Below, one piece after another: positions 1,960 through 42,579 of a stretch of 64,000 nt of DNA. Source of the DNA: an uncultured Candidatus Saccharibacteria bacterium (lineage in GTDB: Bacteria > Patescibacteriota > Saccharimonadia > CAILAD01 > JADZBC01). A program made the position numbers and the translations under genes. The notes beneath the pieces are model-generated. The model ran no database searches. It saw only the letters and a list, made by a program, of their open reading frames with translations, and was not told the origin of the DNA. The stretch covers positions 147,270 through 211,269 of the forward strand of contig CAZRJR010000001.1 in the NCBI GenBank assembly GCA_964600985.1, given 5' to 3'. How positions within the stretch are numbered: position 1 is the stretch's first letter; every line of letters begins with the position of its first letter.

Positions 1960-3693
1960 ATGCTGTCGTATATTAAATTCCGCTGGCATCGGCAGATTCG
2001 GCGTTTGCGCAAACGACTCTGGGTGGGGCGGCGTTGGCTTAGTAATTATCTAGATAGGCACGTGTATGGCGCCTGGCAAAAGCTTGGTCCGCTGCGTTGG
2101 ATGTTTGTAGCATGGCTGGGGATTGTAGTCTTTGCCCTGTGGGGTGTGCTTGCTGGCATTGGCAAGCTAGACTCATACTTTGTTACTACCCAGCCGGTAC
2201 CTGGCGGGATTTATACCGAAGGCTTATTGGGTGAAGTACGCATTGTGAACCCAATTTTACCTGAGAATACCGCCACGAGTGATGTCGATAAGCTGGTGTT
2301 TAATGGTCTCACCAGGGTGAATACACAGCGCCAAATCGAACCAGATTTGGCCGAGCGCTGGGATGTATCGGCCGACCAAAAGACGTATACGTTCTACTTA
2401 CGCAAGGGAGTGAGTTGGCACGATGGTCAGCCGTTTACAGCCAAAGACGTTGCCTTTACTGTAGCGGCTATACAGAACCCTGATAGCAAGTCACCGCTGT
2501 CGGCCAATTGGCAGGGTATTAAGTACGAGGTGGTAGACGATAGCACGGTTAAGTTTGTGTTACCCAATAGTTATTCGTCATTTTTGTCGGCTACCACGGT
2601 AGGTATATTGCCGCACCACTTACTGGACTCCATCCGTCTCTCTACACTCCGTATCAATCCATTTAGCCAGCATCCCGTCGGTACTGGGCCCTACGCATTG
2701 TCCAGCCTAAGCAACGATAGTGGCTTAATAGTTTTAAAGGCTAATCAGCAGTACTTCCGGGGTAAGCCACTTATAGACGAGGTGCACTTTGCACTGTATA
2801 GTAGCCCGGCTGCACTGCTCGACGGCTATGCACGTAAGCAGATCTTGGGCATATCCGAGCTTAATCCCGACCAGTTGGCGATGGCCAAGAAGAACGACAA
2901 TCTCACGGTAAATGCCTTTAGTTTACCTGCCTACGTGGGTTTGTTCTTTAATACCAAAACACCATACCTGGCAGACGCTACTACCCGACAGGCAATCGCT
3001 CGGGCAATTGATCGCAAGCGTATTATAAGTAGTGCATTGTCTGATTCTGCTGTGCCCATTTATTATCCGCTTCTGCCGGGACAAGCAGGGTTTAATGCTA
3101 AGGCGGCGCGCTATAGCTACGACCCTACTGCTGCGGCAGCGGTACTCAAGACTAAAAAGCCCGCGCAGCCCCTGCGACTCGTAACACTTAAATCGCCAGA
3201 ATACAGTGCAGTAGCGCACGAAGTAGCCCAGGAGCTCAATCTTGCCGGCATACCAGTTGTGGTTACAGAGGCCGACATAGTCAGCTTGCAGCAGAATAAT
3301 ATACGGGCTCGTAATTACGACTTGTTACTGTATGGTCAGAATGCCGGTGTGGATTCCGACGTGTATTCGTTCTGGCACTCAAGCCAGGCGGCCGACCCGG
3401 GTCTGAATGTGTCGAATTACAAAAACGCCGAAGCCGATAAGCTCCTTGAGGCTGCCCGTTTGGCTCGGGATGCTAATTTGCGCGCTGCCAAATACGCAAG
3501 CTTTGTCGATGTATGGGCCAAAGACGCCCCGGCCGTATTGCTGTATAGCCCACGCTACCTATATGGCCAAGATGACCGCGTAGAGGGCTTAGTGGTAGGT
3601 AAGATTGCCGAGCCAAGTGATCGATTCTACCAGATAGAAAAGTGGTCTATGCGCCGAGCTCGTGTGCTCAAGCGCGACGCCGCGACCGAATAG
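1960..3693 (+). CDS. ABC transporter substrate-binding protein, family 5 (peptide/nickel type), with an N-terminal membrane anchor.
   Basis: 577 aa. An N-terminal TM helix is followed by an SBP_bac_5-like core (VFNGLTRV, YTFYLRKGVSWHDGQPFTAKDV, LLYG..AG.DSDVYSFWHSS). Confidence 0.8.
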   Translation: MLSYIKFRWHRQIRRLRKRLWVGRRWLSNYLDRHVYGAWQKLGPLRWMFVAWLGIVVFALWGVLAGIGKLDSYFVTTQPVPGGIYTEGLLGEVRIVNPILPENTATSDVDKLVFNGLTRVNTQRQIEPDLAERWDVSADQKTYTFYLRKGVSWHDGQPFTAKDVAFTVAAIQNPDSKSPLSANWQGIKYEVVDDSTVKFVLPNSYSSFLSATTVGILPHHLLDSIRLSTLRINPFSQHPVGTGPYALSSLSNDSGLIVLKANQQYFRGKPLIDEVHFALYSSPAALLDGYARKQILGISELNPDQLAMAKKNDNLTVNAFSLPAYVGLFFNTKTPYLADATTRQAIARAIDRKRIISSALSDSAVPIYYPLLPGQAGFNAKAARYSYDPTAAAAVLKTKKPAQPLRLVTLKSPEYSAVAHEVAQELNLAGIPVVVTEADIVSLQQNNIRARNYDLLLYGQNAGVDSDVYSFWHSSQAADPGLNVSNYKNAEADKLLEAARLARDANLRAAKYASFVDVWAKDAPAVLLYSPRYLYGQDDRVEGLVVGKIAEPSDRFYQIEKWSMRRARVLKRDAATE

Positions 3694-3757
3694 ACTCTGG
3701 GCACACGCTATAGCCTGTAGTACAATGCAATATGTTCTATATGTGGATCCGTATATT

Positions 3758-3970
3758 TGCCGCGGTGGTGCTGCGTGGATGTAAATATGTGTAGACACCA
3801 GCGTGTCACGGGGTTTAGTCTAGATTAGTATCCGACAGATTTTTAAAAGTAACAATACAATATACCGCGGTGGTGCTGCGTGAGAAACGTAAATATGTGT
3901 AGACACGAGCGTGTTGGCGGCGTAATCTGGGTGAGTATCCGACAGATCTTTAAGAGTAACAATAAAGTAT
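3758..3970 (+). repeat. Two tandem degenerate units of about 105 bp each. Each unit is a decayed copy of the tRNA-Leu 5' half plus its upstream promoter-like segment, lying immediately 5' of the intact tRNA-Leu(CAG).
   Basis: Unit 1 and unit 2 both begin ccgcggtggtgctgcgtg, contain gtaaatatgtgtagacac.agcgtg, and end gtatccgacagat.tttaa.agtaacaata.a.tat. The intact tRNA starts gccgcggtggtggaatggtagacacgctagc. Confidence 0.7.
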
Positions 3971-4056
3971 GCCGCGGTGGTGGAATGGTAGACACGCTAG
4001 CTTCAGGTGCTAGTGGGAGCAATCCTGTGGAGGTTCGAGTCCTCTCCGCGGTACCA
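3971..4056 (+). tRNA. tRNA-Leu (anticodon CAG), type II with a long variable arm. CCA is encoded.
   Basis: Acceptor stem GCCGCGG/CCGCGGT, anticodon stem-loop CTAGC-TTCAGGT-GCTAG, T-arm GGTTCGAGTCC. Closely resembles E. coli tRNA-Leu(CAG). Confidence 0.9.
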
Positions 4057-4098
4057 GCATAAAGCCCCAAGATAAGCTTGGGGCTTTATGCTGGTATG
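4057..4098. terminator. Bidirectional rho-independent terminator hairpin between tRNA-Leu and the convergent Rpf-like gene.
   Basis: gcataaagcccc aagataagctt ggggctttatgc: a 12-bp perfect inverted repeat flanked by A/T. Confidence 0.6.
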
Positions 4099-4110
4099 AA
4101 AGTTAGATAG

Positions 4111-4986
4111 CTAGGCTCGTGAGTAAATAAAGTTATAGCCTTTGTCGGTATTGCGGTCCCAGGTGTAGTAGGGGCTAAACAGGTAGAAGATGTTTTGGTA
4201 GGCATTTACACCGGCCTTTTGGTTCTCGTAGGTGCCGTCCTTGCTGTGTTCGGGGTTATTAGTGGTTTTAATGAGTGTGGAGCCCTCTGGTATGCCGCTT
4301 GTAGGGCGCAGGCAGAATGTAGTGCCACTCGGTACGCTTATGCTGAATTTACCCTCGGCGTTCGTCTTGGTGGTAAAGTCTTCGTAACAGGTCTGGAGCG
4401 TAACATCGGCCTGCGGTTGATCGTTTATGGTAATCTGCCCGGTAATGGTCACATTGTACGAGGCGACAGGGATAGTGGGTAGTAAGTCTGGTAGGGCCAG
4501 TGGTACAGGCTTGGGGGTGGCAGCACTAGACCAGCAGTAGTACGACGCGTTCCATGGTTGAGTGCCCCGGCGCGAAAAAGCCACACGGAAGGCTTCATCT
4601 TGTACAGCTGGTGGTGCATCGGACGCCTTGGGGTACTGGGCGGCTGTTTCGGCACTTACATTGCTGCGCCAGGTACCAATGTCGAACTGATAAGCGCCAT
4701 AGTGGGCAATACCATTAAAGGCAGTATAGTTGGGCGTACTGTTGGGCCCACTACCGCTTTCGCAGCCAGCTATGCGGGTGCGCCAATAATCTACATTGTC
4801 GGTATAAACCACGTAGCTGCCAGCTAGGCTGCGGTAAATTATATATACGCCGCAAAGGCAAAAAAGTGCAATAAATGCGTACAAAATAGGGTTACGGTGA
4901 TGTTGAACCTTGTGGCGGTGGTGCACCAGGTGCTTTTTATGATGTGGATGTTGATGCGCGTGGCGAGTTTTGTGTTTTTGTGGCAT
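4111..4986 (-). CDS. Membrane-anchored Rpf-like transglycosylase with a histidine-rich N-terminus and a C-terminal domain of unknown function.
   Basis: N-terminus HAHQHPHHKKHLVHHRHKVQHHRN is followed by a TM helix. The sequence IAGCESGSGPNSTPNYTAFNGIAHYGAYQFDIGTW matches the CESGG..N..YGGLQF..TW signature of resuscitation-promoting-factor/transglycosylase-like domains. Confidence 0.7.
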   Translation of the reverse strand: MPQKHKTRHAHQHPHHKKHLVHHRHKVQHHRNPILYAFIALFCLCGVYIIYRSLAGSYVVYTDNVDYWRTRIAGCESGSGPNSTPNYTAFNGIAHYGAYQFDIGTWRSNVSAETAAQYPKASDAPPAVQDEAFRVAFSRRGTQPWNASYYCWSSAATPKPVPLALPDLLPTIPVASYNVTITGQITINDQPQADVTLQTCYEDFTTKTNAEGKFSISVPSGTTFCLRPTSGIPEGSTLIKTTNNPEHSKDGTYENQKAGVNAYQNIFYLFSPYYTWDRNTDKGYNFIYSRA

Positions 4987-5046: not shown

Positions 5047-6759
5047 ATGTCGCAGTATTCAAGCATAAGCAAAATTGGTATACTGGCAGATATGAAGGAC
5101 GTAGTAAACGAACTCGGCAGCTTACTTCTAGGGGAGATCACCACAGATTCTGCGGCGCGGGATTACTTTGCAACCGACGGTAGTGTGTTCGAGCTTAAAC
5201 CCCAAGTTGTAATTTACCCCAAGACCGAAAACGACGTTGTCCTGGCCGTAAAATACCTCGAAGCTAAGGCAAAGGCCGGCGAAAAGATCAGCCTTACCTC
5301 TCGCGGTAAAGGTACGGACCAAGGTGGTGGCGCACTGGGCGATGGCGCCCTCCTGGTTATGCCGGCCCATATGAAGCGCTTTGTGCGCATGGGTAAGCGC
5401 AGCATCACGGTAGAGTCGGGCATGATTTACCTTGAACTACAAGGCATACTCCACAGTCATGGTCGGTGGCTGCCACCGTACCCAGCCAGTATCGACTTCG
5501 CTACTATAGGCGGTGCAGTGGCAAACAACTCGGCCGGTGAGAAGACGATTAAGTACGGGTCTACACGCGACTACGTGCAGTCACTCAGGGTGGTGCTAAG
5601 CAATGGTGATGTGATTACCACCCGACGCTTAAGTCGTAAGGAGTTGGCTGCCAAGAAGCGCCAAGACGACTTTGAGGGAGAAATTTATCGACAGCTCGAT
5701 GAGCTCCTGAAGGCTAATAAGCAGATTATTAATGCCGCCCCGCCACAGACAAGCAAGAACTCAGCGGGCTATGATCTGTGGGATGTGAGGGGCCGCAACG
5801 GATCGTTTGATCTCTCGCAACTCATTGTGGGCTCGCAAGGCACACTTGGGGTAGTTACCGAAGCTACTTTGCGCACCGAAAAGCTCAACGAGCACACTAT
5901 TCTACTTACAGGGTTCTTTGAAACGGTCGAGGCTATGGCCGAGGCGGTGGATAAGATTATGCCGCTTGGTCCAAGTGCGCTCGAGGTGGTAGACTACCAT
6001 TTGCTTAAGTTCTTGCGCGATCACCACAACCACATTATTGATGGCTTAATCCCCGAGAAGTTACCAGCAGTAGCTTTGCTTGTGGAGTTCGACGACACCA
6101 AGCAGTCGCGTAGGTTGCGCAAGGCGCACAAGGTAGCCAAGGTGTTTCACGAACTAACCTACCAGTCTGGCTATGCGACTGATCCTGATGAACAAGCCGC
6201 CCTGTGGAAGATTCGCCGCAGCGCCGCCGCAGTTATATGGATGTACAACGGCCCCAAAAAAGCCCTACCAATTGTGGAGGACGGTGTAGTGCCGCTAAAG
6301 AATATGCCGGAGTTCTTGCGGGAGGTATACAAGCTGTTTGATAAGTACAAGATCCAAACTGCGGTGTGGGGACATGCGGGTAATGCCAACTTCCACCTGC
6401 AGCCATTCTTAGACCTCTCGAACTTTCGTGATCGCAAAAAGATATTTAAGCTCATGGATGAGTTTTACAAGTTGGTCATTCGGCTCGAGGGCTCTACTTG
6501 TGGTGAACACAACGACGGCATTCTGCGTGGCCCCTACCTTAAAAAGCTCTATGGTGCAGAGATCTTCGACCTGTTTTGTAAAGTCAAAGAACTGTTTGAT
6601 CCCTACAACTTTCTAAACCCTGGTGTTAAAACGGGAGCTACTCTAGAAGATGCCGAGGTGCATTTGCGCCGCGAATACTCCATGAAGCACCTCCACGACT
6701 TCTTCCCGAGCCTGAGCCACACCAAGCCCAAAGCTGTTAAAAAAGAAGAGTTTTTGTAG
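5047..6759 (+). CDS. FAD-binding oxidoreductase (FAD-linked oxidase, GlcD/D-lactate dehydrogenase-like). The true start is probably ATG 5047 or ATG 5092, not the 4897 start of the annotated ORF.
   Basis: FAD_binding_4 (PCMH) signature RGKGTDQGGGALGDGALLVM...GGAVANNSAGEKTIKYGSTRDYV and a C-terminal FAD-oxidase domain. The 4897 start would overlap the divergent upstream gene, and its first 50 aa are an implausible Met/Trp-rich leader. Confidence 0.8.
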   Translation: MSQYSSISKIGILADMKDVVNELGSLLLGEITTDSAARDYFATDGSVFELKPQVVIYPKTENDVVLAVKYLEAKAKAGEKISLTSRGKGTDQGGGALGDGALLVMPAHMKRFVRMGKRSITVESGMIYLELQGILHSHGRWLPPYPASIDFATIGGAVANNSAGEKTIKYGSTRDYVQSLRVVLSNGDVITTRRLSRKELAAKKRQDDFEGEIYRQLDELLKANKQIINAAPPQTSKNSAGYDLWDVRGRNGSFDLSQLIVGSQGTLGVVTEATLRTEKLNEHTILLTGFFETVEAMAEAVDKIMPLGPSALEVVDYHLLKFLRDHHNHIIDGLIPEKLPAVALLVEFDDTKQSRRLRKAHKVAKVFHELTYQSGYATDPDEQAALWKIRRSAAAVIWMYNGPKKALPIVEDGVVPLKNMPEFLREVYKLFDKYKIQTAVWGHAGNANFHLQPFLDLSNFRDRKKIFKLMDEFYKLVIRLEGSTCGEHNDGILRGPYLKKLYGAEIFDLFCKVKELFDPYNFLNPGVKTGATLEDAEVHLRREYSMKHLHDFFPSLSHTKPKAVKKEEFL

Positions 6760-6780
6760 TACAATAGCCTAGTTCATTTT

Positions 6781-6848
6781 GCGCGGTCGTGGCGGAACAG
6801 TAGACGCGCTAGCCCCGAAGGCCTCGCCTGGGAAAGTAAGATTGAGGG
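6781..6848 (+). pseudogene. tRNA-Leu 5'-half pseudo-copy (acceptor, D-arm and anticodon-stem start) with no T-arm.
   Basis: gcgcggtcgtggcggaacagtagacgcgctagcc parallels the 5' half of the downstream tRNA-Leu (gcggacgtggtggaatggtagacacgctagct). No GGTTCGA T-arm follows. Confidence 0.55.
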
Positions 6849-6900
6849 CTAGATGAGCATCGACCGATAAGTAATCACATTAAAAACAGAATATCTATGT

Positions 6901-6990
6901 GCGGACGTGGTGGAATGGTAGACACGCTAGCTTGAGGGGCTAGTGCCTAATATATCAGGCGTGGAAGTTCGAGTCTTCTCGTCCGCACCA
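6901..6990 (+). tRNA. tRNA-Leu (anticodon GAG), type II. CCA is encoded.
   Basis: Acceptor GCGGACG/CGTCCGC, anticodon stem-loop CTAGC-TTGAGGG-GCTAG, long variable arm, T-arm GAAGTTCGAGTCTTC. Confidence 0.88.
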
Positions 6991-8466: not shown

Positions 8467-8473
8467 AAGTACT

Positions 8474-8490
8474 GGTGGGTGATGAGGGGT
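8474..8490 (-). repeat. 17-nt direct repeat of the 3' end of tRNA-Val(TAC), from the T-stem 3' strand through CCA. It lies 152 bp downstream of that tRNA gene.
   Basis: tggtgggtgatgagggg at 8474-8490 is identical to the first 17 nt of the tRNA gene at 8642-8658 (plus-strand reading). Confidence 0.75.
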
Positions 8491-8511
8491 GGTTGCTGGC
8501 GCAACCTTCGT

Positions 8512-42570: not shown

Positions 42571-42579
42571 GTACAATGC

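What the first reader, a model, noticed from the sequence alone, without database searches (positions are those of the whole stretch)
3700..4056. Two tandem decayed copies of promoter plus tRNA-Leu 5' half precede the intact tRNA-Leu(CAG). A similar 5'-half pseudo-copy precedes tRNA-Leu(GAG) at 6781-6848.
Units at about 3758-3864 and 3865-3970 both start ccgcggtggtg..., retain gtagacac.agcgtg (D-arm to anticodon stem) and share the tail gtatccgacagat.tttaa.agtaacaata. The intact gene follows immediately. At 6781 gcgcggtcgtggcggaacagtagacgcgctagcc mimics the 5' half of the neighbouring tRNA-Leu but has no T-arm. The fragments are on the left (5') side for + strand Leu genes, while the minus-strand tRNAs have 3'-end repeats on their left. 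This hints either at a strand-independent local duplication process or at gene replacement events leaving 5' remnants. The spurious 60-aa ORF at 3880-4062 lies within this repeat.
Basis: seen in the sequence. Interest (0 to 1): 0.5.

Follow-up and report, generated by a model that had tools for sequence, protein, structure and literature searches.

The report
Conserved tRNA-Leu 5'-fragment leader repeats
Between the promoter and an intact leucine tRNA gene of a Saccharibacteria genome lie two tandem ~106-base units, each a remodelled copy of the gene's first ~45 bases plus its leader; related species carry 0, 1 or 2 such units and conserve them far better than neutral DNA, so they are probably a working part of the tRNA precursor rather than decaying junk.

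Summary
TRF finds a 2.1-copy tandem array of period 107 at 3760-3982. It ends in tRNA-Leu(CAG) at 3971-4056. An independent Logan assembly reproduces it.

Each unit has two parts. "A" is a remodelled 5' tRNA fragment: GCCGCGGTGGTG, a 20-nt insert, GTAGACAC, then CAGCGTGTC. "T" is the gene's native leader.

The units are not simply decaying. Nine related Saccharibacteria lineages carry the same A unit with the same non-tRNA insert, although their synonymous sites are saturated. Copy number is 0, 1 or 2. In one sister genome (92% identical) the intact tRNA sits exactly where A sits in its relative.

A folds as a hairpin specific to the + strand, but covariation support is weak.

The second locus (6781-6900, before tRNA-Leu(GAG)) has the same architecture. 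It is conserved even in distant Saccharimonadia, including a 2.3-copy array in one of them.

No integrase or cargo is present.

Best reading: an old partial tandem duplication of leader plus 5' gene part. It is kept by selection as part of the pre-tRNA-Leu leader, and its copy number changes by unequal recombination. Its function is not established.

The "left-side, strand-independent" idea is not supported. The minus-strand 3' repeats belong to a separate structured RNA element found downstream of tRNA genes.

The parts
3698..3726 (+). P0: conserved promoter-like site (TGGGCA-17-TACAAT; core TGTAGTACAATGC) upstream of the whole array
   Evidence: Promoter scan. The same core lies after the SBP gene in all relatives, with or without units. 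Exact TAGTACAAT also precedes tRNA-Leu(GAG) and tRNA-Leu(TAA).
3759..3811 (+). Unit 1, A core: remodelled 5' part of tRNA-Leu(CAG). It reads GCCGCGGTGGTG, then a 20-nt insert, GTAGACAC, then CAGCGTGTC. It can form a hairpin.
   Evidence: CM R1 gives 72.1 bits. MFE -19.6 kcal/mol.
3812..3864 (+). Unit 1, T tail: copy of the native 5' leader, with a promoter-like CCGACA-18-TACAAT
   Evidence: The tails are 74-75% identical within a genome and about 39% between genomes.
3865..3919 (+). Unit 2, A core (the leading G is replaced by A at 3864)
   Evidence: CM R1 gives 70.4 bits.
3920..3970 (+). Unit 2, T tail: the leader that directly precedes the intact gene
3971..4056 (+). Intact tRNA-Leu(CAG)
   Evidence: ARAGORN. 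Rfam tRNA model, 52.4 bits.
4052..4096 (+). Perfect 20-bp hairpin that starts inside the tRNA 3' end (TACCA...). It looks like a terminator but has no T run.
   Evidence: the repeat finder I1. The terminator scan found no canonical terminator.
6757..6765 (+). P0' core TAGTACAAT upstream of the tRNA-Leu(GAG) locus
   Evidence: It is conserved in L005, L066, L069 and L070.
6781..6852 (+). A': pseudo 5' part of tRNA-Leu(GAG). 6781-6814 covers the acceptor 5' strand, the D arm and the anticodon-stem 5' strand. 6815-6841 is an insertion. 6842-6852 is ttgagggctag, matching the anticodon loop and 3' stem strand.
   Evidence: 26/31 identity, z=10.3. Homologues occur in L066, L068, L069, L070, L007, L009, L010, L012 and L014.
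6853..6900 (+). T1': leader between A' and the intact tRNA-Leu(GAG)
6901..6990 (+). Intact tRNA-Leu(GAG)

Best explanation
The feature is a short tandem array inside the 5' leader of the tRNA-Leu(CAG) gene.

How it arose and changes:
- An ancestral gene had the layout promoter P0, leader T, tRNA. It underwent a partial tandem duplication of the leader plus the first ~45 nt of the gene. This gave P0-(T0)-A-T1-tRNA.
- The event is old. It is shared by at least nine lineages of one Saccharibacteria clade.
- The displaced 5' fragment (A) was remodelled. It gained an insert in the D-loop position and a new 3' segment. These are complementary to the retained tRNA-like blocks, so A folds on its own as an imperfect hairpin of about 16 bp that pairs the acceptor-like 5' strand.
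- A has since been kept by purifying selection.
- Copy number changes by unequal recombination or replication slippage between the 11-12-nt identical heads (GCCGCGGTGGTG). This gives 0, 1 or 2 units in different lineages, and 2 in this genome.
- The same kind of event at tRNA-Leu(GAG) produced the 6781-6900 element. That element is older still and is kept across distant Saccharimonadia.

Shown here: the anatomy, the homology, conservation above the neutral level, the copy-number variation, and the absence of mobile-element genes.

Inferred, not shown:
- The array is transcribed from P0 as part of the precursor and removed when RNase P cuts at the tRNA 5' end.
- The conserved A hairpin acts at the RNA level, for example as a leader stabiliser or as a minihelix-like processing module that keeps the same -1..+12 context as the tRNA.

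The actual function is not established.
For: Anatomy:
- TRF period 107, 2.1 copies.
- An independent assembly, L057, is identical.

Distribution of homologous A units:
- Found in L001 (at least 2 copies), L002, L003/L004/L065, L058, L059, L060/62/63, L064 and L068.
- Absent from L005, L066, L067, L069 and L019.

Conservation:
- Four-fold degenerate sites of the adjacent SBP gene are saturated: 26-37% identity against 25% random.
- Between genomes, the tRNA-like columns of A are 0.90 identical, the non-tRNA columns 0.67 (up to 0.93), and the tail 0.39.

Gain and loss:
- L058 and L069 are 92% identical in their flanks and differ by exactly the 103-nt A-T unit. In L069 the intact tRNA sits where A sits in L058.
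- T0 and T1 are homologous wherever both exist: L002, L060, and L070/L009/L012 at locus 2.

Structure:
- The consensus hairpin has 16 pairs with 88% of cells paired.
- The forward strand folds much better than the reverse complement: -19.0 against -10.8 kcal/mol, in 9 of 10 units, Wilcoxon p=0.004.

Specificity and context:
- CM R1 finds A only in tRNA-Leu(CAG) leaders across 352 kb.
- The locus-2 element is conserved in distant genomes, where the SBP protein is only 46-49% identical. L007 carries a 2.3-copy array of period 114.
- No integrase or transposase lies among the neighbours.
Against: - Covariation is almost absent. Only one compensatory pair was found, and 47-110 of 500 shuffles reach the observed values. 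Single-sequence z-scores range from -3.1 to +1.4.
- Some lineages (L059, L060, L068) are visibly more diverged. L058 and L059 prefer a shifted helix.
- The unit has been lost without obvious consequence in L069, and it is absent in L005 and L066. It is therefore dispensable.
- Equilibrium folding of the whole 324-nt precursor does not show that the evolved A protects the tRNA acceptor stem better than an unmodified duplicate would.
- There are no expression or 5'-end data, so transcription from P0 and the processing steps are assumptions.
Confidence: 0.55

Rival explanations
1. The units are neutral remnants: non-functional by-products of slippage or unequal crossing-over. They persist because arrays keep being regenerated. 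They look conserved because gene conversion with the adjacent tRNA gene, and between units, homogenises them.
For: - The most conserved columns are the tRNA-identical ones (0.90).
- The acceptor strand of the locus-2 fragment tracks that of the true tRNA in each clade, for example GCCGTGG in both in L007.
- There is lineage-specific decay in L059 and L068 and outright loss in L069.
- Covariation is lacking.
Against: - Gene conversion from the tRNA cannot maintain the 20-nt insert or the CAGCGTGTC block, because neither has a template in the tRNA. These columns are still 0.67-0.93 identical between genomes with saturated synonymous sites, while the adjoining tail is at about 0.39.
- A mosaic of 12-nt and 8-nt tRNA blocks around a stable insert is not what conversion tracts would leave.
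- Locus-2 elements persist across very distant Saccharimonadia, which have roughly 1-Mb streamlined genomes.
Confidence: 0.2
2. The units are displaced 5' tDNA fragments. They were left by site-specific integration of a mobile element, or by gene replacement through incoming DNA, that carried its own promoter and 5' tRNA part. The element body was later deleted.
For: - A 5' fragment upstream of the tRNA gene in the same orientation is a configuration accepted for integrase-made islands (Islander configuration filter, PMC4383910).
- In L069 (locus 1) and L005 (locus 2) the intact gene sits exactly where the fragment sits in sister genomes, directly after the native promoter.
Against: - No integrase, transposase or cargo is present in any of about 15 loci. 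Only 50-90 nt separate fragment and gene.
- Arrays have regular periods of 106-114 nt.
- The sequence between fragment and gene (T1) is homologous to the native leader T0, and to the leader of genomes that lack the fragment: L005 and L066 at locus 1, L013 and L017 at locus 2.
- Pattern scans of viral and metagenome collections found no unit on any other element.
Confidence: 0.1
3. The units are tandem promoter modules. Each tail is an active promoter and each A is its initially transcribed region, so the array multiplies transcription initiation for tRNA-Leu, as with the tandem promoters of stable-RNA operons.
For: - The scan finds CCGACA-18-TACAAT in the tail of unit 1. The tail of unit 2 has CCGACA-18-TAAAGT.
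- A GAC-containing, -35-like motif and an AT-rich stretch are shared by tails in most relatives.
Against: - The -10-like hexamer ends only 2-3 nt before the tRNA +1, so a normal start site would fall inside the tRNA.
- The distance from the GAC motif to +1 varies from 21 to 29 nt among relatives (reading).
- The AT-rich stretch next to +1 is equally what an RNase P leader looks like (own knowledge).
- This reading does not explain conservation of the insert inside A.
- The scan is a consensus match only.
Confidence: 0.12
4. The two-unit array is an assembly artefact, for example a mis-joined or duplicated repeat.
For: Several short-read contigs of relatives end inside the units (L001, L064, L057), which shows that assemblers struggle here.
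Against: - The two units differ at 17% of positions, so they are not a collapsed or duplicated identical repeat.
- A contig from another assembler carries both.
- L001 and L007 independently show two-unit arrays.
Confidence: 0.03

Closest known systems
E. coli tyrT/tyrV operon 178-bp repeats encoding RttR (RtT RNA, Rfam RF00391)
   Same: A tandem array directly attached to a tRNA gene. Its units are delimited by a partial copy of that tRNA and are co-transcribed with it. I checked this in E. coli K-12: period 178, 3.1 copies, each unit ending in the tRNA-Tyr 3' end TCCTTCCCCCACCACCA. [quoted passage not shown] Copy number there is thought to change by unequal crossing-over (own knowledge).
   Different: [quoted passage not shown] The units here lie on the 5' side, carry the 5' end, and sit between promoter and gene. 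There is no sequence relation to A or T. The true counterpart of RtT in this window is the separate 3' element at 8473-8641 and 9624-9782.
Displaced tDNA fragments at the ends of integrase-mediated genomic islands (Islander principle)
   Same: A partial tRNA copy in the same orientation on the expected side of a regenerated, intact tRNA gene (PMC4383910).
   Different: No integrase and no island are present. Only 50-90 nt separate the copy from the gene. The copies form regular tandem arrays. The fragment is remodelled and conserved across species. The intervening DNA is the gene's own leader.
Functional spacer RNAs released from tRNA precursors, e.g. 3'ETS-leuZ in E. coli
   Same: A transcribed spacer of a tRNA-Leu precursor that is conserved beyond neutral expectation and could act after release by tRNA-processing enzymes. 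The comparison rests on my own knowledge of Lalaouna et al. 2015 and was not checked here.
   Different: Here the spacer is 5' and derives from the tRNA itself. No target or partner is known.
Hairpin or minihelix model substrates of bacterial RNase P
   Same: A is a long helix whose 5' strand is the acceptor strand. It is preceded by the same -1..-3 context as the tRNA in each genome (tat|G, tga|G, tag|G; reading). A purine follows the helix.
   Different: There is no 3' CCA after the helix and no T-loop. Cleavage has not been tested. This is a resemblance only (own knowledge of RNase P substrates).

Membership tests
Functional tRNA gene | Cloverleaf with T arm and acceptor 3' strand, detectable by ARAGORN or the Rfam tRNA model | tested here: not met
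   ARAGORN finds no gene at 3759-3970 or 6781-6900. Rfam RF00005 gives no match there even at E<=10. No T arm or 3' acceptor strand is visible in the sequence.
Tandem repeat with variable copy number (VNTR-like locus) | Head-to-tail copies of one unit | tested here: met
   TRF period 107, 2.1 copies, 83% matches.
Tandem repeat with variable copy number (VNTR-like locus) | Copy number differs among related genomes at the orthologous site | tested here: met
   0 copies in L005, L066 and L069. 1 copy in L002, L003, L058, L059, L060 and L068. 2 or more in the window and L001. Variation within a species was not tested.
Integrase-made genomic island (attL/attR with displaced tDNA fragment) | Fragment on the correct side and in the correct orientation | tested here: met
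   The 5' fragment lies upstream on the same strand. The rule comes from PMC4383910.
Integrase-made genomic island (attL/attR with displaced tDNA fragment) | Integrase gene and island body between fragment and tRNA gene | tested here: not met
   Only 50-90 nt lie between them. The neighbours are SBP_bac_5, a transglycosylase-like protein, an FAD oxidase and His_Phos_1.
RtT RNA (RF00391), considered for the linked 3' element and not for the 5' units | Match to the Rfam covariance model at the gathering score | tested here: not met
   The best match is 17.8 bits against a gathering score of 45, E=0.32, at window 8473-8608(-). The Phe, L068 and L012 copies give no match. The reciprocal model R2 hits the E. 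coli units only at E~0.1.
Conserved structured RNA (for the A core) | Sequence conservation above the neutral level | tested here: met
   Non-tRNA columns are 0.67 identical between genomes, against 0.26-0.37 at 4-fold sites.
Conserved structured RNA (for the A core) | Base pairs supported by compensatory changes | tested here: inconclusive
   1 of 16 pairs shows a double change. 47 of 500 shuffles reach the covariation score. There are only 10 sequences and they are mostly invariant.
Sigma-70 promoter (for the tail T) | -35 and -10 hexamers at a distance that puts the start site at or before the RNA 5' end | tested here: inconclusive
   The hexamers are found, but the -10 ends 2-3 nt before +1 and the geometry varies among relatives. 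No transcript data exist.

The most novel reading that the evidence does not exclude
tRNA-Leu genes of Saccharimonadia carry a conserved, functional class of cis-acting leader RNA built from the gene's own 5' part. It would be a self-folding mimic of the acceptor and D arm that keeps the tRNA's 5' processing context. It would be cut out by RNase P or another tRNA-processing enzyme and would tune maturation or dosage of tRNA-Leu. Module number would be adjustable by unequal recombination. Together with the RtT-like 3' modules found after tRNA-Val, -Phe and -Leu, this would mean that tRNA genes in these reduced genomes are routinely flanked by small-RNA cassettes delimited by tRNA fragments.
Probability: 0.3. 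Interest if true: 0.7.

Novelty: new variant of a known kind. Interest (0 to 1): 0.5.

Why it matters
- **Annotation.** The region should be labelled neither as a pseudo-tRNA left to decay nor as the 60-aa ORF.
- **Assembly.** Short-read assemblies break here. Three contigs of relatives end inside units.
- **Strain typing.** The copy number (0, 1 or 2) is a ready-made strain or species marker for this Saccharibacteria clade.
- **Biology.** If the conserved A hairpin is functional, it is an example of a tRNA gene spawning a new cis-acting RNA from its own 5' half. That would be unusual on the 5' side, because the known cases (tyrT/RtT, island fragments) are on the 3' side.
- **Testability.** Saccharibacteria have recently become genetically tractable (own knowledge), so the idea could be tested directly.

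Tried and rejected
1. **Collection scans for more units.** A metagenome and a viral scan with GGTGGTGCTGCGTG-N(8-26)-GTAGAC returned only chance hits.
2. **Known RNA family.** Rfam gives nothing at the units even at E<=10.
3. **Coding.** All small ORFs over the units differ between relatives through 1-3-nt indels.
4. **Small hairpins.** ACG-N-CGT and GACAC-N4-GTGTC show no covariation and have mismatches in some units (reading).
5. **"Insulation" idea.** I asked whether the evolved hairpin stops the decoy acceptor strand from mispairing with the tRNA 3' strand. Partition-function folding of the full precursor gave the opposite trend: correct acceptor pairing 0.065 in the native sequence against 0.50 in a hypothetical fresh duplicate. 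Equilibrium folding of 324 nt is unreliable, so the idea is not supported rather than refuted.
6. **Consensus fold of the locus-2 element.** RNAalifold across both clades was uninformative: only invariant pairs, and the alignment is uncertain.
7. **Phage origin of the 3' element.** 54 viral contigs match its 18-base motif, but all belong to one GC-rich phage gene. None has a tRNA or a model match.
8. **Homology of the 3' element to RtT.** Suggestive motifs are shared and there is one weak full-length hit, but the result is not reproducible across copies.
9. **Literature.** Searches found no description of these leader units in Saccharibacteria.

Full report
**What is there.** The window comes from a Saccharibacteria (TM7, Patescibacteria) genome. 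The peptide-binding protein gene that ends at 3693 has its closest relatives in "Candidatus Saccharibacteria" MAGs. Between that gene and tRNA-Leu(CAG) at 3971-4056, Tandem Repeats Finder reports an array at 3760-3982 with period 107, 2.1 copies and 83% matches. The repeat finder shows three in-register blocks.

Each unit has two parts.
- **"A"** occupies 3759-3811 and 3865-3919. It starts with the first 11-12 nt of the tRNA (GCCGCGGTGGTG). A ~20-nt insert follows where the D loop should be (CTGCGTG..ACGTAAATATG). Then comes the tRNA block GTAGACAC, and then CAGCGTGTC in place of the anticodon arm.
- **"T"** occupies 3812-3864 and 3920-3970. It is an AT-rich tail containing gtatCCGACAgat...

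Formal local alignment to the four tRNA-Leu genes of the window scores only the exact head, and only against the CAG gene (z 5.1 and 3.7).

At the second locus, 6783-6813 matches the first 31 nt of tRNA-Leu(GAG) at 26/31 (z 10.3). After a 27-nt insertion the anticodon loop and 3' stem strand (ttgagggctag) reappear.

A Logan contig from run SRR14932662, made by a different assembler, carries both units with identical sequence.

**Relatives.** I fetched the orthologous intergenic region from 15 related contigs through the two flanking proteins.
- The A unit, with the same non-tRNA insert, is present once in L002, L003/L004/L065, L058, L059, L060/L062/L063 and L068.
- It is present at least twice in L001. 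It is also present at the broken end of L064.
- It is absent from L005, L066, L067, L019 and L069.

A covariance model of A finds nothing else in 352 kb of Saccharimonadia DNA. A scan of public metagenome and viral contigs with a unit-specific pattern gave only chance matches.

L058 and L069 are 92% identical over 3.8 kb of flank and differ by exactly the 103-nt A-T unit. In L069 the intact tRNA follows the promoter and the leader "atatgttctcttg" at the very base where A starts in L058. This is what recombination or slippage between the 11-nt identical heads would produce. L069 is nested among unit-bearing lineages, so it is a loss.

Where a leader copy also precedes A (L002, L060, L064), it is homologous to the leader that precedes the tRNA, and to the single leader of genomes without A (L005, L066). 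The unit is therefore a duplicate of "native leader plus the first ~45 nt of the gene".

**Not decaying.** Between these genomes the 4-fold degenerate sites of the adjacent gene are saturated, at 26-37% identity against 25% expected from composition. Yet between genomes the columns of A behave differently.
- The tRNA-like columns are 90% identical.
- The non-tRNA columns are 67% identical. They reach up to 93%, and 80-87% between the window and L002/L003.
- The tail is at 39%, close to what an optimised alignment of unrelated DNA gives.

Gene conversion from the neighbouring tRNA could hold the tRNA-like blocks, but it has no template for the insert. The two units of the window are each closer to the L002 unit in the core than to one another. 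Their tails, by contrast, resemble only each other. This fits constraint on the core plus a lineage-specific amplification. Some lineages (L059, L068, L060) have drifted further, so the constraint is not uniform.

**Structure.** RNAalifold proposes one imperfect hairpin. The acceptor-like strand and the D-stem 5' strand plus CTGCGT pair with GCGTAG, the D-stem 3' strand and CAGCGTG. In other words, each "novel" block is complementary to a retained tRNA block.
- On 9 units, 88% of cells are paired. Only one pair shows a double change, and shuffles often do as well.
- Single-sequence z-scores run from -3.1 to +1.4. L058 and L059 prefer a shifted partner for the same 5' strand.
- The forward strand folds far better than its reverse complement: -19.0 against -10.8 kcal/mol, in 9 of 10 units. 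This points to an RNA-level, sense-strand helix, although the G-rich strand is favoured by G-U pairs in any case.

I therefore treat the hairpin as plausible but unproven.

**Promoters.** The scan finds TGGGCA-17-TACAAT at 3698-3726. Its core, TGTAGTACAATGC, is conserved in every relative, with or without units. Exact TAGTACAAT also precedes tRNA-Leu(GAG) and tRNA-Leu(TAA).

The tail of unit 1 also matches (CCGACA-18-TACAAT). However, its -10 ends 2-3 nt before the tRNA-like +1, and the spacing of the GAC motif to +1 varies from 21 to 29 nt among relatives. I therefore regard the tail as the gene's leader and possibly, not demonstrably, a second promoter. In each genome the three bases before A match those before the tRNA (tat|G, tga|G, tag|G).

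**Second locus.** In L005 the intact tRNA-Leu(GAG) follows the promoter after 19 nt, exactly where the pseudo-half sits in the window.
- L069 has promoter-A'-T1'-tRNA with a nearly intact 5' half.
- L070 and L068 have promoter-T0'-A'-T1'-tRNA.

Unexpectedly, the same architecture is present in distant Saccharimonadia, where the SBP protein is only 46-49% identical: L007, L009, L010, L012, L014, and also L066. It consists of:
- the acceptor 5' strand and D arm, with a hairpin insert in the D loop in L009 and L012;
- CGCGCTAGC;
- a 26-37-nt insert;
- GGCTAG;
- the leader hairpin TAGCCCCTCC...GGGGAGCTA;
- an AT-rich stretch, and then the tRNA.

L013 and L017 have only the leader hairpin. L007 has a 2.3-copy array of period 114 at 95% identity. 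The acceptor strand of the fragment follows that of the true tRNA in each clade. So 5' partial duplications of tRNA-Leu genes are ancient, recurrent in form, amplifiable and retained in genomes of about 1 Mb.

**Mobile elements.** No integrase, transposase or cargo gene lies in or next to any of these loci. The neighbours are housekeeping genes. The configuration (5' fragment upstream) is one that island-finding software accepts (PMC4383910). Integration or gene replacement therefore cannot be excluded for the founding event. However, the 50-90-nt spacing, the regular arrays and the T0/T1 homology all favour local duplication.

**The "left side" remark.** The minus-strand tRNAs do have perfect copies of their last 17-21 nt on their left:
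- Val: 8473-8489 and 8642-8658;
- Gly: 9370-9390 and 9530-9550;
- Phe: 9624-9642 and 9782-9800.

For a minus-strand gene, left is downstream, so these are ordinary 3' fragments. In relatives, plus-strand tRNAs carry them on the right.

Between the tRNA and its fragment (for Val and Phe, and for Leu in relatives) lies a conserved structured RNA of about 105 nt. RNAalifold gives 18 pairs, 9 of them with compensatory double changes in only 6 sequences. A model built from it finds further copies after tRNA-Leu(GAG) in L005 and after tRNA-Val in L009, L012 and L014. In L012 it forms a 171-nt-period array of [tRNA 3' 17 nt, terminator, core].

This is the architecture of the E. coli tyrT/tyrV 178-bp repeats that encode RttR. 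I verified those on the K-12 genome (PMC3318445). The two share AAGCGCGCAGCG and AAGGTTCG. Model-based tests of homology are weak and not reproducible.

**Verdict.** The finding is real and its description is accurate. Its interpretation needs correction. These are not decaying relics and they do not reflect a strand-blind process. They are an old, selectively retained, copy-number-variable module of the tRNA-Leu leader, made from the gene's own 5' part. What the module does is not known. My best guess (inference) is a role at the RNA level in precursor stability or processing.

It is a new variant of a known kind of thing, namely tRNA-fragment-delimited repeats attached to tRNA genes. It is of moderate interest. 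The interest would be higher if the conserved hairpin, or the companion 3' RNA, turns out to be functional.

Noticed in passing
window 8473-8641 (-) and 9624-9782 (-); also L068 4275-4441, L059 ~5971-6135, L060 ~4539-4703, L070 2974-3126, L005 11153-11315, L012 12332-12664, L014 8455-8562, L009 7079-7188: A conserved structured RNA of about 105 nt lies 50-60 nt downstream of tRNA-Val, -Phe, -Leu(CAG) and -Leu(GAG). It is followed by a direct copy of that tRNA's last 17-19 nt (including CCA) and a terminator. 9 of 18 predicted pairs show compensatory changes in 6 sequences. It is tandemly repeated (period 171) in L012. No Rfam family reaches threshold. The architecture matches the E. coli tyrT/RttR repeats, and it shares the motifs AAGCGCGCAGCG and AAGGTTCG with them, but homology is unproven.
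   Followed up: partly
window 9370-9531 (-): tRNA-Gly(GCC) also has a 21-nt copy of its 3' end (90% identical) 160 nt downstream, followed by a terminator. The intervening sequence does not match the Val/Phe element model.
   Followed up: no
L007 10362-10622: A distant Saccharibacterium (LBMAG epi.bin1) has a 2.3-copy array of period 114 at 95% identity. Each unit is a pseudo-5'-part of tRNA-Leu(GAG) plus the leader hairpin, and the array lies directly upstream of the intact gene.
   Followed up: partly
window 10775-10859: The leader of tRNA-Leu(TAA) contains the same TAGTACAAT core and a GTCCAGTAT..AAACTG motif. That motif also occurs in tRNA-Leu(CAG) leaders of relatives (L002, L003, L005, L060, L064). 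This suggests a leader motif shared among tRNA-Leu genes.
   Followed up: no
window 4052-4096; similar hairpins after other tRNAs, e.g. 8613-8640: A perfect 20-bp hairpin begins inside the 3' end of tRNA-Leu(CAG) (TACCAGCATAAAGCCCCAAG / CTTGGGGCTTTATGCTGGTA), so the CCA end would be paired in the primary transcript. No T run follows it.
   Followed up: no
window 4098-4135: The sequence atgaaagttagatagctaggctcgtgagt resembles the first ~30 nt of the 3' element that follows tRNA-Leu(CAG) in L059, L060 and L068. The element appears to have been largely deleted in this genome. This is an alignment by eye.
   Followed up: no
window 8719-9531: tRNA-Val and tRNA-Gly are about 810 nt apart here, with a DUF1428 gene between them (Pfam E=2e-24; the likely start is near 9279, not 9426). 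In L003 and L066 the two tRNAs are 10-13 nt apart. This is an insertion next to tRNA genes without any recombinase.
   Followed up: partly
window tRNA 5' flanks, e.g. 42572-42579, 3962-3970, 6890-6900, and relatives: An AT-rich, -10-like hexamer very often ends only 2-4 nt before the mature 5' end of tRNA-Leu genes and of the pseudo-halves. Examples are TACAAT gc|G, TAAAGT at|G and TATAAT ct|G. That is too close for a normal start site, and it may reflect RNase P leader preferences or unusual start-site geometry.
   Followed up: no
window 11515-11591: tRNA-Val(CAC) starts 10 nt before the stop of the NUDIX-domain ORF 10961-11524, so gene and tRNA overlap or abut without a visible promoter.
   Followed up: no
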